Under the pieces are notes generated by a model. The model worked only from the letters and a program-made list of their open reading frames with translations, had not been told where the DNA came from and did no database searches. This document shows positions 35,392 through 64,000 of a stretch of 64,000 nt of DNA, one piece after another. Each line of letters begins with the position of its first letter. Within the stretch, counting starts at the first letter, position 1. Location: NCBI GenBank assembly GCA_022775905.1, contig JALFJX010000037.1:83-64082 (forward strand). Reading direction: 5' to 3'. The position numbers and the translations under genes were made by a program. This stretch comes from Methanobrevibacter sp. (lineage in GTDB: Archaea; Methanobacteriota; Methanobacteria; Methanobacteriales; Methanobacteriaceae).

Positions 35392-37050
35392 TTGAGTAAT
35401 ATGAACTCTATACAAAAAAATTTATTTCAGTTGCTAGTGGAATTTGATGAAATCTGTAAAAAGTATGATGTCAAATATCTTTTGGCTGCAGGTGCATCAT
35501 TGGGTGCAGTCAGAAATCGTAGCTTTATGCCATGGGATGATGATATTGATTTATACATTACAAGAGAAAATTGGAATAAATTAAGGCATATCCTGGAAAC
35601 AGAAGAGAATGTTCTCCCAGAAGGCCGTTCTTTTGTATATAAGGAAAACACTCCATATTACTCCAATGTACTTCCAAGATATATTGATGATACTACAACA
35701 ACACTTTATAGAAATCAGGCTTTGGCTGGAAAAGCTTGCGGCCAACATTTAGAATTGTTCATATTTGATCCGATTCCAAGTGATGAAACGGAAAAACAGG
35801 AATATCTTGACTTATTACATGTTTATACTGAATTGGTTTCACCTTACTTTATTGTAAACAAGCATGCAACCTATGAAAATTGGGACAGACACTACAATCT
35901 CTATAAAAAATACTGCGATAGGATTGATAAGGAAGGTGAAGATAAAGTAATCAATGAACTTGAAGCTATACTGCAACAGTATTCCATTGATGATTGTAAC
36001 GAGTATTGTATGTGTTGGGGAACAAAGGATTATATCTACGACAAGAAGCTATTCCAGGAAGGTCAAATGGGAATGTTTGAAGGTAAAGAATTCCCAATCG
36101 GTATACACCCGGAAGGTATTCTAAGAATAGCTTACGGAGATAGTTGGATGTATGTTCCTGAAGTTGAAGAGCAGATTGTTCATAATGGAATAAAAGAAGG
36201 TGAGAGATCTTTTAAAGATTACACTGATAAGTATCTCCATAAGATTAATCGTGAATCTGCATTTGAAAAGTTCAAGATTAATAAACGTAACAACATTGAT
36301 ACATTCTATCTTCGTCAAAAAAGGGAAATGTTAGTTACAAAAGAGAAAGTTCTAGTTGGATGCATGCATTTCAAATATAACTTTAAGGAAAATGAGGATT
36401 CATTGCGTTCCTTGCTTGAAAATGGAGAATATTTGGAATTGTCTGAAAAGTTTAGCGAATATTCATCATTGCAGGGAAATAGTAATGTCAGAAAATATAA
36501 GATTACTGTTCCGATAACTGATCAGAATCTTGCAACATTCCTATTGAATCTATTGAAACAGGGAAAATATTATGATATCAACAAATATCTAAGCATCCGT
36601 AAATTAAGTGAAGCTCCACTTACTGATGAATTGAAATCAATTGAAAAAGAAGTTGAATTCTGCAGAAAATTATCCATAGCAAGATATGATGATAAGGATG
36701 AAAGTTTAGTTCAGAAACTCATTGATGATTATGATGGTATTGTCACTGACCTACTGGATATTCTTAGGGCAAAACTATGGATTGAGGAAATCAATGCAAA
36801 ATCCACTGAAGATTATAATGAAATTGATAGGTTATGTGATGAGATATTGGAAAAATATTCATTTGACGGTGAGACCATGGCAATTCAGGCAAAAGCTAAA
36901 TCTGAATTAGGTCAAAATGATGAATCAATTGAGTTATATAAAAAAGCAATTATGAATACTAGAAACGGATTGATATGGCAAAAAGTAGAGGATGAATGTG
37001 GCATTAGCCGTATGGAAATGGAACGTGAAATAATTGAGGGGGAACAATAA
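35392..37050 (+). CDS. LicD-family phosphotransferase with C-terminal TPR-like region
   Basis: 552 aa carrying LLAAGASLGAVRNRSFMPWDDDIDLYITRENW, the LicD nucleotidyltransferase-fold signature including the acidic DDD(I)D cluster. TTG start 9 nt after AGGAGA; ATG 35401 is an alternative. Confidence 0.85.
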   Translation: MSNMNSIQKNLFQLLVEFDEICKKYDVKYLLAAGASLGAVRNRSFMPWDDDIDLYITRENWNKLRHILETEENVLPEGRSFVYKENTPYYSNVLPRYIDDTTTTLYRNQALAGKACGQHLELFIFDPIPSDETEKQEYLDLLHVYTELVSPYFIVNKHATYENWDRHYNLYKKYCDRIDKEGEDKVINELEAILQQYSIDDCNEYCMCWGTKDYIYDKKLFQEGQMGMFEGKEFPIGIHPEGILRIAYGDSWMYVPEVEEQIVHNGIKEGERSFKDYTDKYLHKINRESAFEKFKINKRNNIDTFYLRQKREMLVTKEKVLVGCMHFKYNFKENEDSLRSLLENGEYLELSEKFSEYSSLQGNSNVRKYKITVPITDQNLATFLLNLLKQGKYYDINKYLSIRKLSEAPLTDELKSIEKEVEFCRKLSIARYDDKDESLVQKLIDDYDGIVTDLLDILRAKLWIEEINAKSTEDYNEIDRLCDEILEKYSFDGETMAIQAKAKSELGQNDESIELYKKAIMNTRNGLIWQKVEDECGISRMEMEREIIEGEQ

Positions 37051-45099: not shown

Positions 45100-45118
45100 T
45101 TAATAAAATTTAATATAT

Positions 45119-47386: not shown

Positions 47387-47408
47387 TATCAGCATAGGAG
47401 TTAATTAA

Positions 47409-49622
47409 ATGGTAAATAATTATATATGGCTTTTTGGTGAAAATTTAGGTAAAACCGCTGATAATAATTCTTTTTACTTATGGAAAAAAGTGGTAAACAT
47501 TAATGATGATGTTGAAAAATATATTATTTTTGAGCGAAATAAAAATACGTTAGAAACCTATGTTAATCTCACAGAGTATGAAAAAAAATATGTATTATGG
47601 CGTAATTCCTATAAACATTTTAAAAAATTCTTTGATGCTGATTTATTTATAGTTACATTATCCTATAAAGATGTATTTCCAGATAAAATATTATTTCAAA
47701 AATTAAATTTAAAAAACAAAAAACCAATTTTTTATTTAGGTCATGGCTCTGTAGGTATTAAAACTATAGGGTATAAAGGTGACTCTTATAATAATAATAT
47801 GTTTAGACTGTTTTTGTATAATAATTATGTGCATGATATTTTTGCTAAATATAATAATTTTAGAAAATATCAATTACCTAATTTCTGTTTTCAATCTAGA
47901 TTTGGTGAATTAGTACGTAGAAATCAACAAATTAAAAATAAAAAACAAATTTTATGGTTTATAACCTGGAGAGAATATTTTGGAGATAATGCTGATACTA
48001 GATTATTTATAAGACATATTTCTAATGTTTTAGAATCACATAAGTTAAAAAAATTTTTAATTGATGAAAATGTTACTTTAAAGTTATGTGTTCATCAGTT
48101 TTTTGATAATGAGATTTTTGAAGAAATACATAACACCATAGAAAAAGGCATTATTGAAATTGTTAAATCATCCGAAATTAATGTAATGAATGAATTAGTA
48201 AGTAGTGAACTTTTGATTAGTGATTATTCTTCTGTTGTTTATGATTTTACATTTTTAAATAAACCTGTGTTATTATTTCAACCAGATATTGAAACATATA
48301 TGAAAAAGAGAGATTTTTATTGTAATCTTGAAGAACTTAATGAGATTAATAGTAAAATTTCTTCTGAATTAATTGAAAAAATCATTAATAAAAATTATAA
48401 AATAAATGAATTTTTTAGAAAGACTTATCCTGAAAAAATAGATTATGAGTACATAAAACAGGACAATCATAATATTGATATTTATAATTATATTTATTCT
48501 CTTCAAAAGAATAAAATTACAATCATTGGAACTGATTTCTTTGAAAATTCTTATGAAAATGATGTTATTTTAAGATATGCTGAAAGTTTATTGAAACAAA
48601 ATTATCTTGTTTCATTATTATCTTTAACTAAATCAAAATCAAAGAAAAACATGCCATTTGGTTTAAATATTAATTATTTACATTGGAATAAGTCCCATCC
48701 TTTAAAAAGGAAATTAATAAATTCCATTTTCAAATCTGATAAATACTTCAGTTATCTAAATCATGAACAAGATAAAAATAATCTACATCCATATATGGGG
48801 TATAAATTATCTGAAGTGCTTAAAAATTTAAGATCGAATACTGTAATTTCTACAAGGGAATCATTACATTTATTTTTAAATGATGTTGATTCTGATGAGA
48901 TAAACAATAAAATATACTTATTCCCACATGATTCTAATCAAATTGATAAAATGTTTCCATATATTGCAGAAAAACTTGAAAAACTAGATATCCAAGATAC
49001 AATATTCTTTGATAAATCCACTCAAGATGACATACATGGAAAATTGAAGTATTCTAATTGTAATTCAGAAATATTGAATACATTATTGATTCCTGGAGAC
49101 TATCCTACAATTGAAGAATTAACTGAAACTTTTGAGAACAATGAAAATAAATTAGCAAAATCTGTATTTCAGGGCATTTCATTTGTTATTGACAAAGCAA
49201 GTATAATTAATCTTATGGAATTTGGATGTTATTTGAAAGAAAACAATATCAAAAACATAATGATTGATGCTCATGTAAAATCAGAAGATTTTGAAGAATT
49301 CATGAAATTAATTAATGATAATCAGTTATATGGAATAATTACCTGCAGAGATTGGACCGAAGACTATGTAAAAAGCATTACGAATAAAGATTTTACTTTA
49401 GATATGTCTAATAATAATTCAAATATTTATAATGTTAGTTCAATATTGAATGGAAAAAAGGTATTTTACAATACTAAAAATAATGATTCCATTATAAATA
49501 GTATTCCAGAGTCTTATATTGAATCTCATAGCTGGTTATATGAAAAAATTAACTCTTTAAATGAATTATCATATGATGAATTGATAAATAGCTATTTATT
49601 AATAACAGAACAAGATAAATGA
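47409..49622 (+). CDS. paralogue of 45119 gene: TagF-type domain plus degenerate GT4-like domain
   Basis: 737 aa with the same N-terminus (NNYIWLFGENLG), LGHGSVGIK and ISDYSSVVYDFTFLNKPVLLFQPD. In the GT4-like half the Gly-rich motif reads FFENSYENDV and the FG..E motif reads SNIYNVSSILNGKKVF. Confidence 0.75.
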   Translation: MVNNYIWLFGENLGKTADNNSFYLWKKVVNINDDVEKYIIFERNKNTLETYVNLTEYEKKYVLWRNSYKHFKKFFDADLFIVTLSYKDVFPDKILFQKLNLKNKKPIFYLGHGSVGIKTIGYKGDSYNNNMFRLFLYNNYVHDIFAKYNNFRKYQLPNFCFQSRFGELVRRNQQIKNKKQILWFITWREYFGDNADTRLFIRHISNVLESHKLKKFLIDENVTLKLCVHQFFDNEIFEEIHNTIEKGIIEIVKSSEINVMNELVSSELLISDYSSVVYDFTFLNKPVLLFQPDIETYMKKRDFYCNLEELNEINSKISSELIEKIINKNYKINEFFRKTYPEKIDYEYIKQDNHNIDIYNYIYSLQKNKITIIGTDFFENSYENDVILRYAESLLKQNYLVSLLSLTKSKSKKNMPFGLNINYLHWNKSHPLKRKLINSIFKSDKYFSYLNHEQDKNNLHPYMGYKLSEVLKNLRSNTVISTRESLHLFLNDVDSDEINNKIYLFPHDSNQIDKMFPYIAEKLEKLDIQDTIFFDKSTQDDIHGKLKYSNCNSEILNTLLIPGDYPTIEELTETFENNENKLAKSVFQGISFVIDKASIINLMEFGCYLKENNIKNIMIDAHVKSEDFEEFMKLINDNQLYGIITCRDWTEDYVKSITNKDFTLDMSNNNSNIYNVSSILNGKKVFYNTKNNDSIINSIPESYIESHSWLYEKINSLNELSYDELINSYLLITEQDK

Positions 49623-49729
49623 GTTCTTCATAGCATTAACAAGTTCACATAAATATTTATCTAAATAGATAATTTTTAAATAATGCGAATAATAAATTTA
49701 ACAATTATATAAAGTATTGTGGAATTTTT

Positions 49730-52297
49730 ATGAGCGTTATGAAGAAAACTAATAATTTACAGTATGATTTTACAATTGTATTATATAATATGGAAAATTG
49801 TATTGAACATTCAATTAGGTCAATCATCAGTCAGGAATATGATTTAAGTAAAGTGGAAATACTTTTTATCAATTCAGAAGACAATATTCCTGAAATTGCT
49901 CAAAAATATAGGAAGGAATATCCTGAAAACTTCTTTATTATAGATAATTCTGATAAAACCATTAATTTAGGTTTAAAATATTCTAATGGAAAATATCTTA
50001 ACTTTTTAAATAGTGGAGATGTTTTATCCAATAATACTTTAAGTGAAATAAGTGCTTTTTTTAATAAAATAAATTCATTGGATGTTGCAGCTATTCGTGT
50101 AGAAGAAAGCAAAGGAAAATTTCCAATTGACTATGGATTTACACAGTCAAATAAAGTCATTGATATATCTCAACACCCAGAATTCATTAATTCGATTTCA
50201 GGTTCATTTTTTATAAAAAAAGAAAACATTAATATATCTGATGTAACATATATCGAGGAACTATTACTAGATTCCAAGTTGGGATTTGCAATTGATCCAA
50301 AAGTTGAGAAATTAAGCTTAAACTATATGGATAATGAAACAAGCTTTGAAAAATTCATTAATTATTATGAAAATATATCTAAGTTCTGCAGTGAAAAAGT
50401 AGGTTATATTCCAAATTATATTCAATATAAGCTTGCAATTGAACTTGCAGATATTGTTGAAATCGAAGATATTGATGATGTATTAACCAATGGTTTAACT
50501 TCCAGTGACATATATGATTATCTAAATAATGTATTTAATCATATTAATGCGAGCAATATCAAAGGAAATGTTTTCATTAACAATCATACTCAGAATTTCA
50601 TGTTATATTTAAAAAATAATGATTTTCACATTACTATTGAAGAGGATAATGAGGTCGTAGTATATTCAAAAAACCATGCATTGAATGTTTTAAACAGACA
50701 GGATATCTGGATGGACATCATTGAAGTCAAAGATGACTTTATTAATTTCTCAGGAAGCATTACCAGCTACTGTGAATATGATTTCATAGCCATTGAAGCT
50801 TTAAAGGAAATGAATAATAAAACTGAAGTATTTTCATGTGAATTTGTAGATTATAGTTCTACAGAGCGTAAAGTTAAAACATTCCTGTCAATTCCTTGGG
50901 TATATATGTATAATTTTGATGTACAGATTCCAATTTCAGACTGTCAGAACTGCAAGATATCCTTCAGATTCACTTATTCTGATGATGAAACTGAGATTAC
51001 AGTAAATCCGAATATTAAATTCAGAAGATTTGCCAGTTTATCTGCATTTAGCCATTATTTCATTAAAGATTCAAGAATTGTATTGTTTACAATGAACTCA
51101 TTTTTAATAATGCCATATTCCTTTAAAAAGGTTTTAAGATTTGAACTGAGCTCAATTAAAAAGATACTTCAAAGCAATGCAACAAATAAGATTAAAACAC
51201 TTGGCTATAAAGGAATATATTTGACTCTGTTGCCATATATGAAAAACAAGAAAATATGGCTTATGGGAGACAGGGTCGAAGCCGGCGATGACAATGCTGA
51301 ACATCTATTCAAATACTGTATTAATCAAGATGATGATGTCAACAAATATTTTATCATAGGTAAGGACTCACCAGATTATAATAGATTAAAAAAGGAATGC
51401 AAAAACATTGTTGCTTTTAGATCTGCAAAACATAAGATACTCTTTACATTTTCAGAAAAGCTAGTATCCTCACAGGTAAACAAGTTCATTTTAAATCCTT
51501 TTTTAGCTAGTAACGAGTTCTTGTATAATGGTGCAGTGCTGCACGATGAGTGTTTCATCCAGCATGGTGTAATTTTACATGACTTATCAAATTGGATTAG
51601 AAAGTACGTTTATAATCTGTCATTATTCGTTACTAGTGCTGAAGCGGAATGGGAATCAATTGCACATACAAATTATAACTTTGAAACTGATAGAATACAG
51701 CTGCTAGGTCTTCCAAGATATGATAAGCTGGTCAACAATGACAATAAACAGATACTGTTCATTCCAACATGGAGACGTAATTTAGATGACCCTCGTCTGT
51801 TAGTTGATTCAGAGTATTTTAAGAATATCAATAATGTTTTAAATAATGAAAGATTGATTGAACTTGCCCATGAATATGGATATTCATTGGTTTTCAGACC
51901 ACATCCCGAATTATGGAGATATCTTGATTTATTTGATATTCCTGATGAATTTAGAATATCTGAGGAATCCTATACAAAATTATTCAGTGAATCATCAATT
52001 ATGATTACAGACTACTCATCAATTGCATTCGATTTTGCATATCTTCAAAAACCTTTAATATACTATCAGACCCAGGACTTTGAGGAATTCCATTATGAAA
52101 AGGGATACTTTGATTATGAAACAATGGGATTCGGTGAGATTATTAAAACGGAAAATGATTTGATTGATAAAATTGAATTTTATTTGAAGCATAATTGTGA
52201 ACTTGAAGATGAATATAAACAGAGATCATCAAAGTTTTTCAAGTTCCATGATACAGACAATTCTAAAAGGATATATGAGTGGTTAATTAATCATTAG
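49730..52297 (+). CDS. GT2-like domain fused to TagF-type glycerophosphotransferase domain
   Basis: 855 aa. The C-terminal domain has FIQHGVILHD, GLPRYDKL, IPTWRRN, FRPHPEL and ITDYSSIAFDFAYLQKPLIYYQTQD. The N-terminal GT2-like fold has diverged acidic motifs (INSEDN, FLNSGD). Confidence 0.85.
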   Translation: MSVMKKTNNLQYDFTIVLYNMENCIEHSIRSIISQEYDLSKVEILFINSEDNIPEIAQKYRKEYPENFFIIDNSDKTINLGLKYSNGKYLNFLNSGDVLSNNTLSEISAFFNKINSLDVAAIRVEESKGKFPIDYGFTQSNKVIDISQHPEFINSISGSFFIKKENINISDVTYIEELLLDSKLGFAIDPKVEKLSLNYMDNETSFEKFINYYENISKFCSEKVGYIPNYIQYKLAIELADIVEIEDIDDVLTNGLTSSDIYDYLNNVFNHINASNIKGNVFINNHTQNFMLYLKNNDFHITIEEDNEVVVYSKNHALNVLNRQDIWMDIIEVKDDFINFSGSITSYCEYDFIAIEALKEMNNKTEVFSCEFVDYSSTERKVKTFLSIPWVYMYNFDVQIPISDCQNCKISFRFTYSDDETEITVNPNIKFRRFASLSAFSHYFIKDSRIVLFTMNSFLIMPYSFKKVLRFELSSIKKILQSNATNKIKTLGYKGIYLTLLPYMKNKKIWLMGDRVEAGDDNAEHLFKYCINQDDDVNKYFIIGKDSPDYNRLKKECKNIVAFRSAKHKILFTFSEKLVSSQVNKFILNPFLASNEFLYNGAVLHDECFIQHGVILHDLSNWIRKYVYNLSLFVTSAEAEWESIAHTNYNFETDRIQLLGLPRYDKLVNNDNKQILFIPTWRRNLDDPRLLVDSEYFKNINNVLNNERLIELAHEYGYSLVFRPHPELWRYLDLFDIPDEFRISEESYTKLFSESSIMITDYSSIAFDFAYLQKPLIYYQTQDFEEFHYEKGYFDYETMGFGEIIKTENDLIDKIEFYLKHNCELEDEYKQRSSKFFKFHDTDNSKRIYEWLINH

Positions 52298-52314
52298 AAG
52301 GGAGGTTAATATAT

Positions 52315-54876
52315 ATGGCTAATTTCAAGTTTACAATCATTATTCCAAACAATTCAGGATATAAAGTGTCTATTGATTCAGTAATATCCCAACAGCTTGA
52401 CTTTATTGAAAATACTCAAGTGATTGTTGTTAAAGAGAATGATGAAATTGCTTTAGATATTGATGAATATATATCCCAATATCCTGATAACATTCTAGTT
52501 TTAGATAATGGATCCAGAAATTCAGCACTAAGACATGCAAATGGAGACTTTATCAGCTTTATGAAAGCAGGTGACTCATTTGATGTCAAATGCTTAAAAC
52601 TTGTCAGTGAAATGTTCGATACAAATAAGGACATTAATTTAATTTCCGTTCCATTGTTTGATAATATTTATAAAAATCCATTATATGACTTGCCAGCATC
52701 AGACAATAGAATAATTAATGTTAATGATGAAGATGTGAACTATTATTTTCATTTACCTATCTGTTCTTCGTTTATTCGCAAAAACAACTATGAATTTGAA
52801 GACAAAGATATTGATGAAAATGGAATAAGCGTAACTTCCAGGATATTAATTGATGATGGGAAATTTGGATTTATCAAAGACATATTCTGCTATCACAATC
52901 CAGAAAATAGCAATAACATGAACTATTGCAGCGTTATGGGAAAATTAAATCTATTGAATAGCTTAATAAAATATTCAAAAGACAATCCGGAATTCCTGCA
53001 GCATATTATTGTAAAAGAATTGGAATCAATTGTTCGAATCGAGGATTTAGATTTCATTACTGTTGATTCAAATCAATTGGATGGATTTTGGAATTTGCTG
53101 TGTGAAATCTTGGATAATATTTCTAAAAAAGCCATTGAATACAATAATTTCATTGACAGTTTTGTAGCCTCATTTTTATTATTCATTAAAAATCAGTCAT
53201 TCAATATCGATTGCAGACAACATAAGGTATTTTTCAAGACAAATAACTACAATATGTTTAATTTACATAGTCATGGATTGTATTTTGATGTAGTAGAAAT
53301 AAGAAAAGGTGTACTGAATTTATCAGGTTTTCTAAAGAGCATTTGCTACAGTGAAAATATTACTGTTGAAGCATGCGTTGAAGACAAAAACGGAGATATT
53401 GCATATTATGAAGGAAAATTTGTTGAATATCCGACAACTGATCGCAGAACCGTCAAGTTTTTATCAATTCCATGGATATTCTCATACAATTTTGACTTTA
53501 AAATTCATTTAAATGGAAAAGAAATAGAAAAAATTTCATTCAGGACAATATATCATGAAAACGCAGAGTATGTAATATGGAAAAATAGAATTTCTGCCCG
53601 GAAATATTCTCATTTATCCAAATTTTCACATTATCTCATAAAAGATGATATTTTGATACTGCTTAAAGATAATTCGTTTTATTCAATGCCATTAAATTCA
53701 AAAAGCAAATATAAATTTGACTTAAGGGCAATTCTGCAATTGATTAAGGAAAAACCACAATACTACAGAGGAGGATTGTTTTATAGGACATTGATAATGC
53801 TGTTATATCCATTCTTGAAAAATAAAAAAATCTGGATGTTTATGGACAGACGTGATTTTGCAGATGACAATGGTGAACACTTATTTAAATATGCTTTAAG
53901 TCAAAAAGATGATGTTGATAAGTATTATGTATTGGATAAGGATACATCTGACTTTAAAAGATTGTCTAAAAGCTTTAAAAATGTTATTCCTTTTGGATCA
54001 TTTAAACATAGGTTATTGTTCTTATTTACTGAAAAAATGATTACATCACAGCCTGCCGTATCATTGTATAATCCTTTCTTCAATAAGAACATCACATTGT
54101 TTGCAGGTTTTTATCCTGATGTATATTTCCTGCAGCATGGGGTTACAAAAGATAACATTTCATCTTGGCTGCATAAGTTCAACAGGAATTTAGCGTTGAT
54201 TTCAACTACATCTGATTTGGAAAAGGAATCATTTTTAGATGTCGGATATAACTATGATGAGGAAATTATTCAAACATTAGGATTTACACGTTATGATAAT
54301 TTAAATAATGAAAATACTAAAAAGCAGATTGTTTTGATGCCGTCCTGGAGAAATTACATTAAAAATGAAGATGATTTGATAAATTCAGAATATTTCAAAA
54401 GATGGAATTCCCTGATAAACAATGAAGAGTTTATAGAATATGCTAAGCAAAAAGGTTATGAAATCATCTTTAAACCTCATTTGAACTTATACAAGTACAT
54501 TGATCTGTTTGATGCAAATGAATATGTTACTGTTGACCATGTTAAGAAGTATCAGGAAATATTTAATGAATCAGCATTGCTGATTACAGATTATTCATCC
54601 ATTTTCTTTGATTTTGCATATATCAAAAAACCTTTAATATTCTACCAATATGCAAATGACTACCATTTTGACTCAGAAAATGGCTATTTTGATTATGAAT
54701 CCATGGGATTTGGTGAAGTAATCAGGGATGAAGATAAAATGGTTAGTAAAATTAAGTATTATCTGGATAACAAATGTGTTATGGAAGATGAATACAAAAA
54801 AAGAGTTGATTATTTCTTCAAACACACAGATAAAAACAACTGTAAAAGAACATATGATTGGATTTATAAAAATTAA
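52315..54876 (+). CDS. GT2-like domain fused to TagF-type glycerophosphotransferase domain
   Basis: 853 aa. The C-terminal domain is very similar to the 42427 gene (ITDYSSIFFDFAYIKKPLIFYQYANDYHFDSENGYFDYESMGFG). The N-terminal GT2-like fold has diverged motifs (VVKENDE, FMKAGD). Confidence 0.85.
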   Translation: MANFKFTIIIPNNSGYKVSIDSVISQQLDFIENTQVIVVKENDEIALDIDEYISQYPDNILVLDNGSRNSALRHANGDFISFMKAGDSFDVKCLKLVSEMFDTNKDINLISVPLFDNIYKNPLYDLPASDNRIINVNDEDVNYYFHLPICSSFIRKNNYEFEDKDIDENGISVTSRILIDDGKFGFIKDIFCYHNPENSNNMNYCSVMGKLNLLNSLIKYSKDNPEFLQHIIVKELESIVRIEDLDFITVDSNQLDGFWNLLCEILDNISKKAIEYNNFIDSFVASFLLFIKNQSFNIDCRQHKVFFKTNNYNMFNLHSHGLYFDVVEIRKGVLNLSGFLKSICYSENITVEACVEDKNGDIAYYEGKFVEYPTTDRRTVKFLSIPWIFSYNFDFKIHLNGKEIEKISFRTIYHENAEYVIWKNRISARKYSHLSKFSHYLIKDDILILLKDNSFYSMPLNSKSKYKFDLRAILQLIKEKPQYYRGGLFYRTLIMLLYPFLKNKKIWMFMDRRDFADDNGEHLFKYALSQKDDVDKYYVLDKDTSDFKRLSKSFKNVIPFGSFKHRLLFLFTEKMITSQPAVSLYNPFFNKNITLFAGFYPDVYFLQHGVTKDNISSWLHKFNRNLALISTTSDLEKESFLDVGYNYDEEIIQTLGFTRYDNLNNENTKKQIVLMPSWRNYIKNEDDLINSEYFKRWNSLINNEEFIEYAKQKGYEIIFKPHLNLYKYIDLFDANEYVTVDHVKKYQEIFNESALLITDYSSIFFDFAYIKKPLIFYQYANDYHFDSENGYFDYESMGFGEVIRDEDKMVSKIKYYLDNKCVMEDEYKKRVDYFFKHTDKNNCKRTYDWIYKN

Positions 54877-57665: not shown

Positions 57666-57674
57666 AGGGATATT

Positions 57675-58462: not shown

Positions 58463-60004
58463 TTGTCAAAAATGGAAAATAATGATGTAGATTGTCTTGT
58501 TATTTCTTACTATTTCCCTCCACGTTTAGAAACTAGTGGTCTTGTAGTTGCAAGAAAGATAATGGAAAAGAATCTTCATGTTGATGTAATTCAAAGCTCA
58601 TATGATAAATCTTCTGATTTTAATGAAATAATTGACAAATATGTTAATGAGAGATTTCCAATTGACATTAAATCCAAACCCGATTATATACCATTTATTT
58701 TTGAATATATTAATTTGGGATTAAAATCTATTAAAAAGAACTATAACAAAATTTATAGCAGATCATATATCTATTCAAACCATTTTTTGGCTTTGGAATA
58801 TAAGTTCAATAATCCTGATGTTGAATGGACTGCAGAATTCTCAGATCCATTGCTTTTAAATCTATATGACGGGAAAATCAAAAATTATCCAAGAGTTATC
58901 CTTGACAACCCAGATTATATCAAAAAACTCAATGAGAAAATAGCCAACTTCAACAAATCCAATAATACTCATTTTAAGGATTTGGATAATCCAAGTAACA
59001 CATTCTTCATTGCAGAATATCTGACATTCATATTTGCAGATAAGATAATATTTACAAATGAAAATCAAAGAGAAGTAATGCTTTCAGTTTATGATGATGA
59101 AATAAGGCAAATTGTGGAAAACAAATCCATTTTTGAGGTTCATCCAACAATTGACAGTGAATTTTATGACTACAAAGACTGCGGACTGGAATTGGATGAC
59201 AATTATATCAATATTGCATACTTTGGTACTTACTACTACATCAGACACTTTGAACCATTATTCTATGCATTTGAAGCATTGAATCACAAATATAAAGATA
59301 AGATTAAATTTTATTTCTTTACAGAACGTGACGAATTATTGAAGATATCAACAGAGAACCTGAAGATTTCAGACAATCTGATTATTGAAAAACCATTAAA
59401 TTACTTTGAATTCTTAAATGCAACCACAAAATTTGATATTTTACTTATTAATGACACAATTACTAAAGGCAATTTCAAAGTAAATCCATTCCTTCCATCC
59501 AAATATTCCGATTATATTGGTTCTGGATCAGACATTTGGGGAATTTGTGAAGATGACAGTATATTATCTAAAAAGGAATTCAAATATAAATCTTCCATGA
59601 CGGACTATAAAAGTTCCTGTGATGTTTTGATTAGTATCTTAAATGACAATGGATATGAAGACTCTGATTGTTTCTTTGAAGATAACATATATGAAAAAAG
59701 AATAAACGAGCTCAACTGGAGATTCGGACTTGAGTTTGATGAGAGAAGAAAATATTATAATCAATCCATTAAACTAAAGGAGAATAATACTAAATTACGC
59801 AGCGAAAAACAAATCTTATTTGACAAAAAAGAGAAGCTCAAATCCAAAAATGATATTTTAAGACAAAAGAATGAGAATCTTAAAAATAAAAATGAGCAGC
59901 TTAAAAAAGAAAATAAGCTACTTAAAGCTAAATATGATGAAATTATTAATTCAAACAGTTGGAAGATTACAGAACCATTGAGAAAATTTAAAAAGAACAA
60001 ATAG
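58463..60004 (+). CDS. putative glycopolymer-biosynthesis protein with C-terminal coiled coil and S-x-S-W-K-x-T-x-P-L-R motif
   Basis: 513 aa with a TTG start. The N-terminal about 400 aa are a globular alpha/beta domain (CLVISYYFPPRLETSGLVVARK..). Residues about 430-495 are K/N/L heptad-rich, followed by NSNSWKITEPLRKF, a motif I recall at the C-termini of O-antigen/rhamnan-type glycosyltransferase-associated proteins. Confidence 0.5.
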   Translation: MSKMENNDVDCLVISYYFPPRLETSGLVVARKIMEKNLHVDVIQSSYDKSSDFNEIIDKYVNERFPIDIKSKPDYIPFIFEYINLGLKSIKKNYNKIYSRSYIYSNHFLALEYKFNNPDVEWTAEFSDPLLLNLYDGKIKNYPRVILDNPDYIKKLNEKIANFNKSNNTHFKDLDNPSNTFFIAEYLTFIFADKIIFTNENQREVMLSVYDDEIRQIVENKSIFEVHPTIDSEFYDYKDCGLELDDNYINIAYFGTYYYIRHFEPLFYAFEALNHKYKDKIKFYFFTERDELLKISTENLKISDNLIIEKPLNYFEFLNATTKFDILLINDTITKGNFKVNPFLPSKYSDYIGSGSDIWGICEDDSILSKKEFKYKSSMTDYKSSCDVLISILNDNGYEDSDCFFEDNIYEKRINELNWRFGLEFDERRKYYNQSIKLKENNTKLRSEKQILFDKKEKLKSKNDILRQKNENLKNKNEQLKKENKLLKAKYDEIINSNSWKITEPLRKFKKNK

Positions 60005-60015: not shown

Positions 60016-60996
60016 ATGGTAAAGATTTCAGTTATATTAACCGCTTTCAATGAAGAGAAATATATCAAAAAAGCTATTGAAAGCATATTAAATCAGACAT
60101 TAACAGATTTGGAATTGATTGTTGTTAATGACGGATCAACAGACAATACACTGGATATCATCAATAGCTTTGACGATGATAGACTCAAACTAATCAATCA
60201 TGAAAATATGGGTCCTGGAGCAAGTAGAAATAAGGCATTGACTCTTGCTGAAGGGGAATATGTAATGTATCTTGATGGTGATGACTGGTACCGTGAGGAT
60301 GCTATGGAAATTGCATATATGGAAGCAAAGGCCAAGGATACTGATTTCACATTCTACCAGATGATTAATTATGATGATAAAACGGGTGAGATTTATGAAA
60401 ATGACTGGTTTAACCTAAATATCTTTGATGAATCATTTGAAAATACCGTTTTCAACATGAATGATTTCAAGGGTTCCATTTTTGATTTGTCTGTTGGAGT
60501 GTGTCAGAAAATATACAATATTTCATTTTTAAAGAGAATTGATGCTAAGTTTCCTGAAGGAATCCTGTTTGAGGATATGCCTTTCTTTTATTATGTGCTC
60601 TTAAAAGCTGAGAAAATTTCAATTGTCAAAAAGCAGCTGTACTACAGAAGAAAGCATGAAGAGTCTATAACTAATGTTGTTGATGGGAAATTCCTTGATA
60701 CCATTCCAGCAGGTCAGGCATTAATGAGAATATTTACGGAAAATGAATGGTATGATACATACAAATTTGATTTGTTGGCCTATAAAATTAATGGACCTCG
60801 TTTTGCTTTAAGAGACATTAAAGAAAATTATAAGATTCCACTTTATGAGTTAATTAAAAAAGACTACGATTCAATTAAACAGAGCCAATATTATCAGGAC
60901 TATTTGGATAATCTTGGTCCAGTAAAGAAAAAGTTCTTCCTTGACATAATAGAATCAGAAGACTATGATGATTTTTTAAGTCTGAACTCAGAATAG
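60016..60996 (+). CDS. glycosyltransferase family 2
   Basis: Canonical motifs ISVILTAFNEEKYI, SILNQT, LIVVNDGSTDNT and YLDGDDWY. Confidence 0.85.
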   Translation: MVKISVILTAFNEEKYIKKAIESILNQTLTDLELIVVNDGSTDNTLDIINSFDDDRLKLINHENMGPGASRNKALTLAEGEYVMYLDGDDWYREDAMEIAYMEAKAKDTDFTFYQMINYDDKTGEIYENDWFNLNIFDESFENTVFNMNDFKGSIFDLSVGVCQKIYNISFLKRIDAKFPEGILFEDMPFFYYVLLKAEKISIVKKQLYYRRKHEESITNVVDGKFLDTIPAGQALMRIFTENEWYDTYKFDLLAYKINGPRFALRDIKENYKIPLYELIKKDYDSIKQSQYYQDYLDNLGPVKKKFFLDIIESEDYDDFLSLNSE

Positions 60997-61081
60997 CCAT
61001 TCTTATTAAAAAGATTACAAAACATTTTAATTAAAGTAAAAATATATTACTAATATATAAACTTTTTTAATAGGTGTATTG

Positions 61082-62053
61082 ATGAATATGACTGTCGGCG
61101 TTATTGGAGCAGGTGCCCTTGGAACTGCAATATCACAACATGTTAGCGAAAATGTATCTGAATTGTTATTGCTATTAAGAAATGAACAACTTTGCGATGA
61201 AATCAACAATTCAGGATACAATTCCCAATATTATCCAAATTTCAAATTGAATGATAATATAAAAGCAACAGTTAATATTGGTGATTTATCAGAATGCGAC
61301 ATTATTTTTTTAGCAATTCCTTCTTCTGCTTTTAGAAAAACCCTCGAAGATCTTCAGGGAACTGTGAAAAATGACGTTATTATTGTAACAACAGCAAAAG
61401 GAATTGAATACCCTTCATTAAAGACAATGGGCAATCTGATTGAAGAATATTTCGATGACAATTATGTTGCATTATCAGGGCCTAATTTTGCGTCCGAAAT
61501 AATGTTAAACTTGCCAACTGTAACCAATATTGCTTCTAAAAACTATGAAAACTCTGTTAAAGTGAAAAAAGTATTGTCAACAAAACAGTTTAAAGTTAAG
61601 ATTATCGATGACATATATGGAATCGAATTTTGCGGCATCCTGAAAAACATCAATGCAATAGCTAATGGTATCTGTGAAGGAATCAACATTAACGAGAATG
61701 CAAGATTTGCAGTATTGACTAAAGGTTTTAAGGATACAATAACAATTATTGAAGCTATTGGAGGTAAATCCGATACAGTCCATGAATATTGTGGTTTTGG
61801 AGATTTGATTTTGACTTCCACATCCCGTGAAAGTAGAAACCATACTTTAGGAGTATTATACGGCCAAAGGCTGATTATGGATGAAAGTACAATGGGAGTT
61901 TTATTTGAGGGTAAAAACTCCATCAAGGCAATTAAGGACATTTGTTCAAAAAACAATATTTGCAGCGACATTGTAAACTTCGTATATGATGTAATCATTA
62001 AAAAGGTAACACCTAAAAAAGCATTTTATAAATTATGGGACAATATTGAATAA
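61082..62053 (+). CDS. gpsA: NAD(P)H-dependent glycerol-3-phosphate dehydrogenase
   Basis: Rossmann motif VGVIGAGALGTA, plus GPNFASEI, LKNINAIANGI and GFGDLILTSTSRESRNHTLG, which matches the GpsA signature G(L/F)GDL.LT..S..SRN...G. Confidence 0.85.
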   Translation: MNMTVGVIGAGALGTAISQHVSENVSELLLLLRNEQLCDEINNSGYNSQYYPNFKLNDNIKATVNIGDLSECDIIFLAIPSSAFRKTLEDLQGTVKNDVIIVTTAKGIEYPSLKTMGNLIEEYFDDNYVALSGPNFASEIMLNLPTVTNIASKNYENSVKVKKVLSTKQFKVKIIDDIYGIEFCGILKNINAIANGICEGININENARFAVLTKGFKDTITIIEAIGGKSDTVHEYCGFGDLILTSTSRESRNHTLGVLYGQRLIMDESTMGVLFEGKNSIKAIKDICSKNNICSDIVNFVYDVIIKKVTPKKAFYKLWDNIE

Positions 62054-62065
62054 AAAGATGATTTT

Positions 62066-62833
62066 ATGATTAGTGTAATTCTATCAGCAGGAATGGGAAC
62101 CAGATTAAGGCCACTTACAGATGAAATTCCAAAACCATTACTTGAAATTAACAACCTCACATTACTTGAAAGAATGATTGGAAACTGCATGAATGCAGGA
62201 ATCCGTGAATTTATTTTAGTTGTTGGATATAAGAAAGAGAAAGTATTGGAAATTGCTCCAAAACTTGAAGATGAATTGGACATTTCAATCAAGATTATTG
62301 AAAATGAAGAATATAATGAAACCAACACATCTGTATCAACATATCTTGCAAGTTTATATATTGAAAATGAAAAACCGGATGATTTCATTTTAATCAATGG
62401 AGACAATGTAGTCGATCCCAAAATCATTGAAAGAATTGTAAAAACAGACAATACAAGTTTGATTGTAGATGATTTCAAGGATTTAAATGAAGAGTCATTC
62501 AAATTGATTTTAGACGATATGAAAACCAATGCTGATAATTCAATAGCTAACGGAATCATATCTGAAATCGGAAAAGAGATTGATATTCCATCATCTACCG
62601 GAGAATTTATAGGTGTTTCAAAGGTCATTAAAGAAGATTTACCTCATTTTAATGAAATATTATCTCAGCTAATTGACGAGGACAGGCAAAACTATTATGA
62701 TTTTGCATACAAGCCACTTTCAAGAGATACAACCATCGACTACGTGCTAACAAATGGTCTTAAATGGACTGAAATAGACGACCATAATGACTGGAAAATT
62801 GCAAATAATTTAATTGACGAATTTGAAAATTAA
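62066..62833 (+). CDS. NTP-transferase-fold nucleotidyltransferase (LicC-like phospho-alcohol cytidylyltransferase type)
   Basis: ILSAGMGTRLRPLTDEIPKPLL (G-x-G-T-R-x-P motif) and a C-terminal KWTEIDDHNDW as in LicC-type enzymes. The gene starts 12 nt after gpsA. Confidence 0.8.
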   Translation: MISVILSAGMGTRLRPLTDEIPKPLLEINNLTLLERMIGNCMNAGIREFILVVGYKKEKVLEIAPKLEDELDISIKIIENEEYNETNTSVSTYLASLYIENEKPDDFILINGDNVVDPKIIERIVKTDNTSLIVDDFKDLNEESFKLILDDMKTNADNSIANGIISEIGKEIDIPSSTGEFIGVSKVIKEDLPHFNEILSQLIDEDRQNYYDFAYKPLSRDTTIDYVLTNGLKWTEIDDHNDWKIANNLIDEFEN

Positions 62834-62889
62834 ATATTATTAACTATAACTATCAAATATATTATACATAACAATTATTTGTGATTACT

Positions 62890-64000
62890 ATGGCTTTAAT
62901 GGATAAAATCAATAACTTGAATGAATGTGCAGACAATACTGCTATTTATAAAAGTTATCATAATGATAAGATTTATGAAAATATTATCTATTTAGAGTCA
63001 AGAAACGGTTTGGATTTTACAGGAAACATTTTTAGAATTGCTGAAGAGTTATCCAATGGAAAATATGGTGATTTTAGGATATATGTATATGCAACAAAAG
63101 ACATTAAAGAAAAAATTGAATGCCTAATCAACCATTACCCTCTAAACATTACTAAAGTCATAACAGATGAAGATGAAGCAACCAAAGTATTGCATAAAGC
63201 CAAATACATTTTCACTGATTCTGGCATCAGACATAAATACATCAAAAAGCCTGGTCAAATAGTCACTAATACATGGCATGGAACTCCATTGAAATTAATG
63301 GGTTTTGACAATCCATCAGAACAGCATACTATCGGTATTATTCAAAGATCATTTTTCTTCAGTGATTATATCTTATTCCCAAATGAATATATGATGGATA
63401 AAATGTCCCATGCATACATGATTGATAAGTTCTATAAAGGAACATTTCTCCTTGAAGGTTATCCGAGAAATAGTGTTTTTTTAGAGGATAATGCTATTTT
63501 TAAAGAAAAATTAAACTTAAAAGGCAAGGAAGTCTTTGTATATATGCCTACATTCAAGGGGCTTGTTAATGACAGAAAAGATGAACAGCAAAAGAATGAT
63601 GTTGACAGGTTTTTAAGTAAATTAAACTTGAAATTAACCGATAATCAGATTTTATTTGTCAAGTTCCATCCATATAATCAGTCAAAAATCGACTTTAGCA
63701 AATATGAACATATCATGGCATATCCTACAGACTTTGAAAGTTATGATGTATTAAATGTTGCTGATGTTCTTATTACTGATTATTCCAGCGTATTTTTTGA
63801 TTTTGCAAGCACTCGCAGAAAAATCATTATATTTAACTATGATCAGGATGAATACCTAAAAGACAGAGGATTATATTTCCCTATTGAAGACTTGCCGTTT
63901 CCGAAGGTTCAAACTGTTGATGGTCTATTGGAAGAATTAAATTCACCAAAAAACTATGATGATTCTGAATTCATTGATGAATACTGCAAATATGATTCAA
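62890..64000 (+). CDS. CDP-glycerol glycerophosphotransferase family protein (TagB/TagF-like), 3' end outside window
   Basis: My translation from ATG 62890: MALMDKINNL...YLESRNGLDFTGNIFRIAEEL.., TWHGTPLKLMGFD, GYPRNSVF, ITDYSSVFFDFASTRRKIIIFNYDQDEY. The frame is open to the window end and is not in the ORF track because no stop is reached. Confidence 0.8.
   Translation, partial: MALMDKINNLNECADNTAIYKSYHNDKIYENIIYLESRNGLDFTGNIFRIAEELSNGKYGDFRIYVYATKDIKEKIECLINHYPLNITKVITDEDEATKVLHKAKYIFTDSGIRHKYIKKPGQIVTNTWHGTPLKLMGFDNPSEQHTIGIIQRSFFFSDYILFPNEYMMDKMSHAYMIDKFYKGTFLLEGYPRNSVFLEDNAIFKEKLNLKGKEVFVYMPTFKGLVNDRKDEQQKNDVDRFLSKLNLKLTDNQILFVKFHPYNQSKIDFSKYEHIMAYPTDFESYDVLNVADVLITDYSSVFFDFASTRRKIIIFNYDQDEYLKDRGLYFPIEDLPFPKVQTVDGLLEELNSPKNYDDSEFIDEYCKYDS

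What the first reader, a model, noticed from the sequence alone, without database searches (positions are those of the whole stretch)
61082..64000. gpsA + LicC-like nucleotidyltransferase + TagB/F-like gene: a self-contained sn-glycerol-3-phosphate activation module
Three adjacent genes could supply and use CDP-glycerol. GpsA would convert DHAP to sn-glycerol-3-phosphate. An NTP-transferase-fold enzyme could make the CDP-alcohol; no TagD/TarD-type small cytidylyltransferase is visible. A TagB/F-like transferase would then use it. Archaeal membrane lipids are built on the opposite enantiomer, sn-glycerol-1-phosphate, made by the unrelated G1P dehydrogenase EgsA. In an archaeon a GpsA-type gene embedded in a glycopolymer locus therefore implies a dedicated G3P pool for the cell envelope. 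It would also be a probable bacterial acquisition.
Basis: partly seen in the sequence, partly recalled or inferred. Interest (0 to 1): 0.65.

Follow-up and report, generated by a model that had tools for sequence, protein, structure and literature searches.

The report
Methanogen glycerol-phosphate supply cassette for wall polymers
A rumen/gut methanogen (Methanobrevibacter) carries a conserved three-gene cassette that most likely makes the 'bacterial' mirror-image form of glycerol phosphate, activates it with CTP and adds it to a teichoic-acid-like cell-surface polymer; the activating enzyme is of a different protein family from the one bacteria normally use.

Summary
gpsA lies at 61082-62053, a LicC-like NTP-transferase (NT) at 62066-62833, and a TagB/F-family glycerophosphotransferase starts at 62890 and is cut by the window end (370 of 560 codons). 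The genome is archaeal: the proteins are 86-100% identical to Methanobrevibacter proteins. No TagD-type cytidylyltransferase, second nucleotidyltransferase or choline kinase is present anywhere in the 64 kb.

The functional link is well supported but only by comparison. gpsA lies within 250 bp of the NT in 68 of 84 loci, across Methanobrevibacter, Methanobacterium, Ca. Methanoflexus, Methanoculleus (gene order reversed) and one Acidobacteriota-labelled MAG. A TagF-like gene is usually next to them. The GpsA substrate-binding residues are invariant. The best structural matches of the NT are cytidylyltransferases for small phospho-alcohols (PntC, LicC, IPCT).

The most likely chemistry is DHAP to sn-G3P to CDP-glycerol to glycerol-phosphate polymer, feeding six TagF-like genes in the locus. 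The NT substrate is untested, and a 2026 preprint suggests CDP-threonine for a Methanobrevibacter homologue.

A bacterial origin is not shown. The enzyme is bacterial-type, but all named close relatives are archaeal and the cassette is compositionally native here. The genes were already annotated in M. ruminantium M1, though not linked. I rate it a new variant of a known pathway, of moderate interest.

The parts
61082..62053 (+). gpsA: NAD(P)H-dependent sn-glycerol-3-phosphate dehydrogenase, 323 aa (an alternative TTG start lies at 61079)
   Evidence: Pfam and NCBIfam matches. It scores 145 and 143 bits against T. maritima 1Z82 and Coxiella 3K96, but only 83 bits against A. fulgidus 1TXG. GxGxxG, K106, K188-N189, D241, T245 and S251-R252-N253 are invariant in 74 aligned sequences.
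62066..62833 (+). LicC/PntC/IPCT-like nucleotidyltransferase, 255 aa; proposed CTP:sn-glycerol-3-phosphate cytidylyltransferase
   Evidence: PF00483 and DUF6564 matches. It is 100% identical to an NCBI 'phosphocholine cytidylyltransferase family protein' from an uncultured Methanobrevibacter. The AF2 model has pLDDT 95.7. The best folds are PntC 6PD2, LicC 1JYK and IPCT 4JD0. gpsA is adjacent in 68 of 84 loci.
62890..64000 (+). TagB/F-family CDP-glycerol glycerophosphotransferase; first 370 of 560 codons, cut by the window end
   Evidence: PF04464 scores 2.2e-54. The full length is taken from L001. The best solved relatives are the TagF-like capsule polymerase Cps3D 8QOY (1.7e-31), TagF 3L7I and TarL 8VA1. 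The TWHGTP (63271-63288) and KFHP (63661-63672) histidine motifs are conserved.
60997..61081 (+). Intergenic leader of gpsA: A+T-rich TATA-like stretches (61040-61062) and AGGTG (61072-61076) 5 nt before the ATG
   Evidence: Read directly from the sequence. Function is not tested, and the sigma-70 scan is not informative for an archaeon.
60016..60996 (+). GT2 glycosyltransferase, 326 aa; part of the five-gene block kept together in close relatives
   Evidence: PF00535 scores 1.8e-34. The block of unknown-510aa + GT2 + gpsA + NT + TagF is kept in L003 even though the upstream genes differ there.
58463..60004 (+). 513-aa protein with no family match and a Lys/Glu/Asn-rich C-terminal tail; first gene of the conserved five-gene block
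   Evidence: No Pfam or NCBIfam hit. It is conserved with the block in L001-L006.
42427..54876 (+). Five large TagF-like genes, two of them fused to GT2; probable consumers of the same CDP-glycerol
   Evidence: PF04464 scores range from 6e-50 to 3e-16, and PF00535 is present in 42427-45099 and 49730-52297. No other NT or gpsA is in the window.
35392..37050 (+). LicD-family phosphotransferase, 552 aa; a possible further consumer of a CDP-alcohol
   Evidence: PF04991 scores 3.2e-23. NCBIfam gives a weak match to the Mf1 cholinephosphotransferase.

Best explanation
The three genes form a supply-and-use cassette for a glycerol-phosphate surface polymer in a Methanobrevibacter.

Proposed steps:
1. 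GpsA reduces dihydroxyacetone phosphate to sn-glycerol-3-phosphate. This is the enantiomer the archaeon does not use for its membrane lipids.
2. The LicC-fold nucleotidyltransferase condenses G3P with CTP to give CDP-glycerol. It takes the place of the unrelated TagD/TarD enzyme of Gram-positive bacteria.
3. The TagF-like enzyme transfers glycerol phosphate from CDP-glycerol onto a growing glycopolymer. The five other TagF-like enzymes upstream, some fused to GT2, probably do the same. The likely product is a poly(glycosyl-glycerol phosphate) like the ones made by TagF-like capsule polymerases.

What is shown: the family membership of all three proteins, conserved catalytic residues in GpsA and TagF, conserved linkage of the three genes, and transcription in gut metatranscriptomes.

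What is inferred: the NT substrate, the nucleotide used (CTP), the stereochemistry, and the nature and anchoring of the polymer. Because gpsA is kept in the cassette even though the cell already makes G1P, either the NT or the transferases probably discriminate against G1P. This too is inference.
For: - Family matches for all three genes.
- gpsA lies within 250 bp of the NT in 68 of 84 loci, and within 3-9 kb in 7 more. This covers all Methanobacterium, Ca. Methanoflexus and Methanoculleus-type loci and the one Acidobacteriota-labelled locus. The gene order is GpsA-NT-TagF in most and TagF-NT-GpsA in most Methanoculleus-type loci.
- Two further unnamed lineages, found through GpsA rather than the NT, show the same GpsA-NT-TagF-GT4 order.
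- Pairwise identities of GpsA and NT correlate across 71 loci (r = 0.96).
- The GpsA DHAP/phosphate-binding residues are invariant.
- Top structural matches of the NT model (pLDDT 95.7) are cytidylyltransferases for small phospho(no)-alcohols: PntC (TM 0.80), LicC (0.76) and IPCT (0.78).
- In the wider NT family the neighbour or fusion partner tracks the substrate: aminotransferase, choline kinase, TagF.
- This is the only NT and the only gpsA in a window with six TagF-like genes. No TagD-type enzyme and no choline kinase is present.
- Metatranscriptome contigs at 99% identity or more cover gpsA, the gpsA/NT junction (61869-62448) and the TagF-like gene.
- M. ruminantium cell walls contain phosphate at levels like those of teichoic-acid-bearing bacterial walls, and its genome has the same genes, mru2188/2190/2191.
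- Coleman et al. consider it unlikely that the bacterial-type lipid genes found in Archaea, GpsA among them, function in membrane phospholipid synthesis (PMC6431249).
Against: - No enzyme of this fold has been shown to use G3P. In a 2021 paper, characterised glycerol-phosphate cytidylyltransferases are described as TagD-family, with two exceptions, one of them of the FAD-synthetase family (PMC8262930).
- The fold does not fix the substrate, and sugar-1-P enzymes score only slightly lower.
- A TagF-like enzyme paired with an NT of this family uses CDP-N-methylthreonine in C. difficile.
- In five M. olleyae-like loci gpsA sits next to a TagD-like/oxidoreductase fusion and a LicD gene. The NT lies 7-9 kb away, beside an aminotransferase, an octopine-dehydrogenase-like gene, GT2 and TagF.
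- Four loci with enough flanking sequence show no gpsA.
- NTs fused to TagF fall outside the gpsA-linked clade in an unsupported NJ tree.
- A TagD/RibL-like protein annotated as a G3P cytidylyltransferase exists elsewhere in M. ruminantium (mru1718).
- The RNA evidence comes from assembled contigs that may contain DNA.
Confidence: 0.68

Rival explanations
1. The NT is an FtaB-like CTP:phospho-amino-acid cytidylyltransferase (for example for phosphothreonine). The TagF-like enzyme would then be an FtaD-like transferase that decorates a glycan with a phospho-amino acid, and GpsA would serve something else.
For: In C. difficile, CD0242/FtaB is an NTP_transferase-family enzyme similar to phosphocholine cytidylyltransferase, and FtaD is TagF-like and uses CDP-N-methylthreonine. 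[quoted passage not shown] In M. olleyae-like loci an aminotransferase and an octopine-dehydrogenase-like gene lie just upstream of GT2-NT-TagF.
Against: It leaves the conserved gpsA-NT adjacency unexplained: 68 of 84 loci, in two gene orders, across two orders of methanogens. None of the genes flanking the window module matches a methyltransferase or phosphatase family.
Confidence: 0.1
2. CDP-glycerol is made by a different enzyme encoded elsewhere (a TagD/RibL-like cytidylyltransferase such as the mru1718 homologue). The NT activates another substrate, such as a sugar-1-phosphate or other polyol phosphate, for the neighbouring glycosyltransferases. GpsA still supplies G3P.
For: M. ruminantium has an annotated G3P cytidylyltransferase outside the locus. 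An FAD-synthetase-family enzyme from Aquifex (AQ185) is a G3P-specific cytidylyltransferase. The NT N-terminus matches many sugar-1-P nucleotidyltransferase models. M. olleyae-like loci pair gpsA with a TagD-like fusion.
Against: Full-length and structural matches favour the phospho-alcohol cytidylyltransferases. gpsA is tightly linked to the NT rather than to any TagD-like gene in 79 of 84 loci. From my own knowledge, archaeal 'TagD-like' proteins of this kind are usually the FAD synthetase RibL. The TagD-like fusion carries its own oxidoreductase domain, so it may make and activate a different polyol phosphate.
Confidence: 0.1
3. The NT is what NCBI calls it, a phosphocholine cytidylyltransferase. 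It would make CDP-choline for the LicD-family transferase at 35392-37050, which would add phosphocholine to the polymer.
For: The closest solved relative by sequence is LicC. A LicD-family gene is in the window, with a weak match to a cholinephosphotransferase model.
Against: There is no choline kinase in the window or in any of the 86 loci examined. LicD is 25 kb away and absent from most loci, while gpsA and TagF are adjacent. Family members that do sit with a choline kinase are distant fusions.
Confidence: 0.07
4. The adjacency has no functional meaning. GpsA would make G3P for lipid head groups or central metabolism and merely lie beside envelope genes.
For: The M. ruminantium genome paper filed mru2188 under 'lipid metabolism, bacterial'.
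Against: The linkage survives gene-order inversion and transfer between lineages, including transfer as low-GC islands. Several genomes hold two to four separate gpsA-NT loci, each with polymer genes.
Confidence: 0.03

Closest known systems
Gram-positive wall teichoic acid precursor route (GpsA or GlpK, then TagD/TarD, then TagB/TagF; B. subtilis, S. aureus, S. epidermidis)
   Same: The proposed chemistry is the same: sn-G3P to CDP-glycerol to glycerol-phosphate transfer by a PF04464 enzyme with the conserved histidines.
   Different: The activating enzyme is not TagD. It has no HxGH/RTxGISTT fold and belongs instead to the NTP_transferase (LicC-like) fold. gpsA is a dedicated part of the cassette rather than a housekeeping lipid gene. 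The host is an archaeon with pseudomurein and G1P-based lipids.
TagF-like capsule polymerases of Gram-negative pathogens (Cps3D/Cps7D of Actinobacillus pleuropneumoniae, with the cytidylyltransferases Cps3B/Cps7B)
   Same: Cps3D (8QOY) is the best solved relative of the third gene, aligned over residues 18-530. GT + TagF-like fusions upstream in the window mirror the multidomain polymerases that build poly(glycosyl-glycerol phosphate). There, the stereochemistry of the polymer is set by the CDP-glycerol supplied.
   Different: Those systems use TagD-family cytidylyltransferases and take G3P from general metabolism. Here the GT2 next to the third gene is a separate protein.
LicC (CTP:phosphocholine), PntC (CTP:2-aminoethylphosphonate) and IPCT (CTP:inositol-1-phosphate) cytidylyltransferases
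   Same: Same fold and same G-loop (LSAGMGTRLRP), with TM-scores of 0.76-0.80. All activate a small phospho(no)-alcohol with CTP.
   Different: Sequence identity is only 17-21%. The genomic partners differ: choline kinase, aminotransferase or DIPP synthase there, against gpsA and TagF here.
C. difficile flagellin Type A system FtaB (CD0242) + FtaD (CD0244)
   Same: An NTP_transferase-family cytidylyltransferase encoded beside a TagF-like phosphotransferase. The authors noted a Methanobrevibacter homologue.
   Different: The donor there is CDP-(N-methyl)threonine, and the partner genes are ftaA and a methyltransferase. Here the partner is gpsA, and no such genes are present.
Archaeoglobus fulgidus GpsA and glycerol-phosphate cytidylyltransferase activity (CDP-glycerol for compatible solutes)
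   Same: It is a precedent for an archaeon that makes G3P and CDP-glycerol for a purpose other than lipids (and my own knowledge of Borges 2006 and Rodrigues 2017, which I could not read here).
   Different: The A. fulgidus GpsA is a distant relative (83 bits against about 145 bits for the bacterial ones). The product there is a solute, not a polymer, and the enzyme responsible was not identified.
S. pneumoniae Gtp1/Gtp2/Gtp3 CDP-2-glycerol pathway
   Same: A dehydrogenase and a 'nucleotidyl transferase' are encoded together in a polysaccharide locus to make a CDP-glycerol (enzymology from my memory of Wang et al. 2010).
   Different: That pathway goes through free glycerol and glycerol-2-phosphate and needs a phosphotransferase (Gtp3). 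Here the SRN phosphate-binding motif of GpsA is intact and no kinase is present. Sequences were not compared.

Membership tests
GpsA, NAD(P)H-dependent glycerol-3-phosphate dehydrogenase (EC 1.1.1.94) | N-terminal Rossmann domain PF01210 with GxGxxG, plus C-terminal PF07479 | tested here: met
   E-values 1e-37 and 2.4e-36. NF000942 scores 262.2 bits against a cut-off of 257. GAGALGTA lies at residues 9-16.
GpsA, NAD(P)H-dependent glycerol-3-phosphate dehydrogenase (EC 1.1.1.94) | Substrate and catalytic residues (Lys of KGIE, Lys-Asn of KNxxA, Asp/Thr of GDLxxT, Ser-Arg-Asn phosphate clamp). The roles of these residues are recalled from GPD1/GpsA structures. | tested here: met
   K106, K188, N189, D241, T245, S251 and R252 are invariant in 74 of 74 sequences, and N253 in 73 of 74. 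The set includes 1Z82 and 3K96.
GpsA, NAD(P)H-dependent glycerol-3-phosphate dehydrogenase (EC 1.1.1.94) | Reduces DHAP to sn-G3P | not testable with these tools
   Needs an enzyme assay.
TagD/TarD glycerol-3-phosphate cytidylyltransferase family (PF01467) | HxGH and RTxGISTT motifs in a roughly 130-aa cytidylyltransferase fold | tested here: not met
   The NT matches PF00483, not PF01467. No window ORF matches a TagD-like query at E of 1 or below. The NT may work like TagD but is not a member of that family.
LicC-like NTP_transferase-fold cytidylyltransferases (LicC, PntC, IPCT) | NTP_transferase fold with the G-x-G-x-R-L nucleotide loop, a conserved Lys, and Asp/Glu metal ligands | tested here: met
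   PF00483 scores 1.8e-18. L6, A8, G9, R13, K23, D113, E236 and D238 are invariant in 25 relatives. TM-scores to 6PD2, 1JYK and 4JD0 are 0.76-0.80.
LicC-like NTP_transferase-fold cytidylyltransferases (LicC, PntC, IPCT) | Phosphocholine specificity, with the genomic partners licA (choline kinase), licB and licD | tested here: not met
   No choline kinase is in the window or in the 86 loci. LicD is 25 kb away and is not linked in most loci. Specificity itself was not assayed.
TagB/TagF CDP-glycerol glycerophosphotransferases (PF04464) | Glyphos_transf domain with the two conserved histidines (recalled as H444 and H584 of S. epidermidis TagF) | tested here: met
   PF04464 scores 2.2e-54. The sequence aligns with 3L7I and 8QOY with TWHGTP and KFHP conserved. 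It is below the NCBIfam equivalog cut-offs for TarF, TarB and TarL, so it is a family member but not an orthologue of any named enzyme.
TagB/TagF CDP-glycerol glycerophosphotransferases (PF04464) | Uses CDP-glycerol rather than CDP-ribitol or a CDP-amino acid as donor | not testable with these tools
   FtaD and TarL show that the family uses other donors.
FtaABCD-type CDP-threonine system | An NT encoded with ftaA and a small SAM methyltransferase next to a TagF-like gene | tested here: inconclusive
   No flanking gene between 58463 and 64000 matches a methyltransferase or phosphatase family. No Fta sequences were available for direct comparison.
Complete wall-teichoic-acid pathway (TagO/TagA linkage unit, TagGH export, LCP ligase) | Presence of the linkage-unit, export and ligation genes | not tested
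   Only the window was searched. The ABC transporter at 56157-58358 is of the amino-acid type (SBP_bac_3) and is missing from L003.

The most novel reading that the evidence does not exclude
The NT would be a third, evolutionarily independent class of sn-glycerol-3-phosphate cytidylyltransferase (LicC fold). With its dedicated GpsA it would let pseudomurein-walled and other methanogens build true glycerol-3-phosphate teichoic-acid-like polymers whose glycerol has the opposite handedness to their own membrane lipids. The gpsA-NT-TagF cassette would be a mobile unit that moves between archaeal lineages and even into bacteria.
Probability: 0.5. Interest if true: 0.7.

Novelty: new variant of a known kind. 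Interest (0 to 1): 0.55.

Why it matters
It would explain why some methanogens keep a 'bacterial' G3P dehydrogenase, a point that studies of the lipid divide have recorded but left without a function. It would give a genetic basis for the high phosphate content reported for Methanobrevibacter cell walls. It would add a new enzyme class for making CDP-glycerol. Surface polymers of rumen and gut Methanobrevibacter are targets for vaccines and inhibitors aimed at methane mitigation, and they probably serve as phage and host recognition structures. It also corrects database names ('phosphocholine cytidylyltransferase', 'choline kinase') that are probably wrong for this clade.

Tried and rejected
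- Rfam and tRNA scans of the window gave no taxonomic marker. Taxonomy rests on protein identity instead.
- An exact look-up of the 324-aa GpsA reading failed because the real start is the ATG at 61082.
- The 25-sequence NT alignment was too diverse for the genome scan. The 8-sequence alignment gave one narrow peptide pattern, so the near-absence of bacteria among the 80 loci is not evidence that bacteria lack the family.
- Naming distant relatives by cluster look-up mostly returned unnamed metagenome proteins.
- The sigma-70 promoter and terminator scan is uninformative for an archaeon.
- Wang 2010 (CDP-2-glycerol) and Rodrigues 2017 (cytidylyltransferase stereospecificity) are not held in the library.
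- I used a B. subtilis TagD sequence recalled from memory, only as a probe. It found true PF01467 proteins in five loci, and I confirmed these with Pfam.
- I considered NT-TagF fusions as 'Rosetta stone' evidence and then down-weighted them, because they fall outside the gpsA-linked clade.
- I rejected the idea that the window cassette is a recent import: its GC is 30.7% against 29.8% for the whole window.


Full report
**What is in the sequence**

The last 3 kb of the window hold three co-directional genes.
- gpsA runs from 61082 to 62053. The ORF tool starts it at a TTG at 61079. Homologues are 323 aa, which fits the ATG at 61082, and AGGTG lies 5 nt upstream.
- After a 12-bp gap comes a 255-aa nucleotidyltransferase (NT) at 62066-62833.
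- After a further 56 bp a TagB/F-family gene starts at 62890 and runs off the window. Near-identical metagenome contigs show it is 560 aa long and is the last gene of the glycopolymer locus. Unrelated redox and efflux genes follow it.

Family assignments are strong.
- GpsA matches both Pfam GPDH domains and the 'bacterial' C-terminal domain, and it passes an NCBIfam GpsA subfamily cut-off.
- The NT matches PF00483, and its nearest solved relative by sequence is LicC.
- The third gene matches PF04464 at 2e-54.

**Organism**

The window has about 30% G+C and no rRNA or tRNA genes. The NT is 100% identical to an NCBI protein from an uncultured Methanobrevibacter. GpsA is 86-89% identical to proteins named M. 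gottschalkii or Methanobrevibacter and 75% identical to M. thaueri. For the sister species M. ruminantium M1, the genome paper lists both EgsA (mru0955) and this GpsA (mru2188).

**Surroundings**

The module ends a locus of about 28 kb.
- It starts with a LicD-family gene (35392-37050) and three acyltransferase-3 genes.
- Five large TagF-like genes follow (42427-54876), two of them fused to GT2.
- Then come an amino-acid-type ABC transporter, a 513-aa protein with no family match, and a GT2.
- The whole window holds only one gpsA and one NT. No ORF matches TagD-type cytidylyltransferases or choline kinase.

The module probably supplies the whole locus rather than only the gene next to it. In one close relative (L003) the upstream genes differ but the block of unknown protein + GT2 + gpsA + NT + TagF is kept.

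**Comparative evidence for a functional link**

A scan of one genome per GTDB species with an NT alignment returned 80 loci. They came from Methanobrevibacter, Ca. Methanoflexus, Methanobacterium and other Methanobacteriaceae, Methanoculleus and other Methanomicrobiaceae (37-40% identity), and one Acidobacteriota-labelled MAG.

I searched the ORFs of all loci with the window proteins.
- Of the 84 loci that carry an NT, 78 from that scan plus the six near-identical contigs, gpsA lies within 250 bp of the NT in 68.
- It lies within 3-9 kb in 7 more.
- Of the 9 loci with no gpsA, 5 lack sequence on one side or the other of the NT.
- A TagF-like gene is adjacent in 37 loci and present in the fetched stretch in 27 more.
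- In most Methanoculleus-type loci the order is TagF-NT-GpsA. Elsewhere it is GpsA-NT-TagF.

Two more lineages, reached from the GpsA side, show GpsA-NT-TagF-GT4. GpsA and NT pairwise identities correlate across 71 loci (r = 0.96), although shared species history contributes to that figure. Linkage that survives inversion, divergence to about 38% identity and transfer between lineages is what one expects of enzymes acting in one pathway.

**The individual enzymes**

*GpsA.* It keeps GxGxxG, the KGIE lysine, the K-N pair, the D and T of GDLxxT, and the S-R-N phosphate clamp. These are invariant or nearly so in 74 aligned sequences, including the T. maritima and Coxiella structures. The roles of these residues are recalled from published GPDH structures. 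The intact phosphate clamp argues for DHAP rather than free dihydroxyacetone as substrate, as in the pneumococcal CDP-2-glycerol route.

*NT.* The AlphaFold model is confident (pLDDT 95.7). Its best PDB matches are PntC, LicC and the T. maritima inositol-1-phosphate cytidylyltransferase, with TM-scores of 0.76-0.80. All three activate small phospho(no)-alcohols with CTP. Sugar-1-phosphate enzymes follow closely, so the fold alone does not decide the substrate.

In the wider family the partner gene tracks the substrate. Fusions or neighbours include aminotransferases (phosphonates), choline kinase, TagF-like domains, and an iron alcohol dehydrogenase with a CDP-alcohol transferase in Streptomyces. 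In a neighbour-joining tree without support values, all gpsA-linked NTs form one clade separate from those fusions.

*TagF-like enzyme.* It aligns best with the TagF-like capsule polymerase Cps3D, then with TagF and TarL. Both histidine motifs are conserved.

**Expression**

Contigs from gut metatranscriptome runs, at 99% identity or more, cover gpsA, the gpsA/NT junction (61869-62448) and the TagF-like gene. These are assembled contigs without strand information, and DNA carry-over cannot be excluded. The evidence is therefore only suggestive of co-transcription.

**Most likely mechanism**

DHAP is reduced to sn-G3P by GpsA. The NT converts G3P and CTP to CDP-glycerol. TagF-like enzymes, working with GT2 domains, transfer glycerol phosphate into a teichoic-acid-like poly(glycosyl-glycerol phosphate).

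TagF-like polymerases can take either enantiomer from racemic CDP-glycerol, so the supply sets the stereochemistry (PMC8262930). In a cell full of G1P, keeping a private gpsA implies that the NT or the transferases prefer G3P. This is inference. The reported high phosphate of M. ruminantium walls (Kandler and König 1978, cited in PMC2812497) fits such a polymer. I put this explanation at about 0.68.

**Rivals**

(a) *CDP-threonine or another CDP-amino acid.* In C. difficile, FtaB is an NT of this family and FtaD is a TagF-like enzyme that uses CDP-N-methylthreonine. The authors mention a Methanobrevibacter FtaB homologue in a 'lipid biosynthesis' region, possibly this cassette seen through its gpsA. 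This leaves the gpsA linkage unexplained, and no ftaA- or ftaC-like genes flank the module. I could not compare sequences.

(b) *CDP-glycerol comes from a TagD/RibL-like enzyme elsewhere, and the NT activates something else.* Five M. olleyae-like loci place gpsA beside a TagD-like/GFO_IDH_MocA fusion and LicD, with the NT 7-9 kb away next to an aminotransferase and an octopine-dehydrogenase-like gene. However, that fusion brings its own reductase domain and may make a different CDP-polyol.

(c) *CDP-choline for LicD.* No choline kinase is found anywhere.

(d) *The adjacency is coincidental.*

**Origin**

The GpsA is of the bacterial type. It matches PF20618 and scores 145 and 143 bits against the T. 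maritima and Coxiella enzymes, but 83 bits against A. fulgidus. Published trees treat archaeal GpsAs as probable but unresolved acquisitions (PMC5059525 and PMC6431249).

I found no bacterial sister group.
- All named proteins among the best 120 relatives of the window GpsA, and among those of the one 'bacterial' cassette GpsA, are from Methanobacteriales.
- In the window the cassette has the host's composition (30.7% against 29.8% G+C).
- In the Acidobacteriota-labelled contig it lies in a 19-28% G+C island between 45-55% flanks.
- In Methanoculleus nereidis it is at 39-40% against 57-65%.

The cassette is therefore mobile, and in those two cases it was imported from a low-G+C donor. The ultimate source remains open. 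The genome scan used one narrow peptide pattern, so bacterial members may have been missed.

**Comparison with what is known**

The gene set was already annotated in M. ruminantium M1, but not connected. mru2190 and mru2191 are listed under teichoic acid biosynthesis and mru2188 under bacterial lipid metabolism, with an adhesin-like gene between them. Lipid-divide studies list GpsA in Methanobacteria without a role.

Characterised glycerol-phosphate cytidylyltransferases are described as TagD-family enzymes apart from two exceptions, one of them of the FAD-synthetase family. A LicC-fold enzyme would be a non-orthologous replacement. I found no paper in the library that assigns this function.

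**Verdict**

The finding is real. The claim of bacterial acquisition is not supported by the evidence gathered. I rate it a new variant of a known pathway, with interest 0.55.

Noticed in passing
L083 8000-17000 (Acidobacteriota-labelled MAG contig CAVSIW010000030.1): The gpsA-NT-TagF-GT4-GT4-DUF2206 block is a 19-28% G+C island between flanks of 45-55% G+C. This looks like a recent import of the cassette from a low-G+C donor, or else a chimeric or mis-binned contig.
   Followed up: partly
L074 10000-13200 (Methanoculleus nereidis): The NT-GpsA-TagF block is at 39-40% G+C against 57-65% in the flanks. In M. sediminis (L079) the same block has nearly the host's composition.
   Followed up: partly
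L025, L027, L032, L035 (one reindeer Methanobrevibacter MAG); also L013/L026, L015/L034, L029/L040, L074/L084: Single genomes hold two to four separate gpsA-NT loci, each with its own TagF-like genes. It looks as if every polymer locus carries its own precursor supply.
   Followed up: no
L040 1-12000 (likewise L038, L041, L047, L056): M. olleyae-like loci have gpsA, then a 437-aa fusion of a TagD-like cytidylyltransferase (PF01467) with a GFO_IDH_MocA oxidoreductase, then LicD, an unknown gene, an aminotransferase, an octopine-dehydrogenase-like gene, GT2, NT and TagF. The fusion may be a bifunctional maker of another CDP-polyol.
   Followed up: partly
window 870-5001 (-) and 7588-8475 (+): A complete phosphate-uptake set (PhoU, PstB, two permeases, PstS-like binding protein) and a PhoU-HTH regulator lie in the same window as the locus for a phosphate-rich polymer.
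   Followed up: no
window 46000-50000: G+C drops to 22% over two of the TagF-like genes (45119-47386 and 47409-49622). These match PF04464 only weakly and carry about 400 aa of unassigned C-terminal sequence.
   Followed up: no
window 58463-60004: A 513-aa protein has no Pfam or NCBIfam match and a long Lys/Glu/Asn-rich, coiled-coil-like tail. It always travels with the GT2-gpsA-NT-TagF block in the closest relatives.
   Followed up: no
window 9909-10706, 20890-29676: This stretch holds two SseB-like genes, a DinG/Rad3-like helicase, an AAA+ ATPase of the SpoVK/CbbX/EccA type and several ORFs with no family match. It may be a separate island of unknown function.
   Followed up: no
L090 5187-10440 (Streptomyces fungicidicus plasmid p1): A LicC-like NT lies between a DUF5941 gene and an iron-containing alcohol dehydrogenase, a CDP-alcohol phosphatidyltransferase and a glycosyltransferase, next to hopanoid genes. 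This is another pairing of a dehydrogenase, an NT and a CDP-alcohol transferase.
   Followed up: no
window 62066-62833 (database names): Public names for this protein cluster ('phosphocholine cytidylyltransferase family protein', 'choline kinase') are probably misleading for the gpsA-linked clade.
   Followed up: partly
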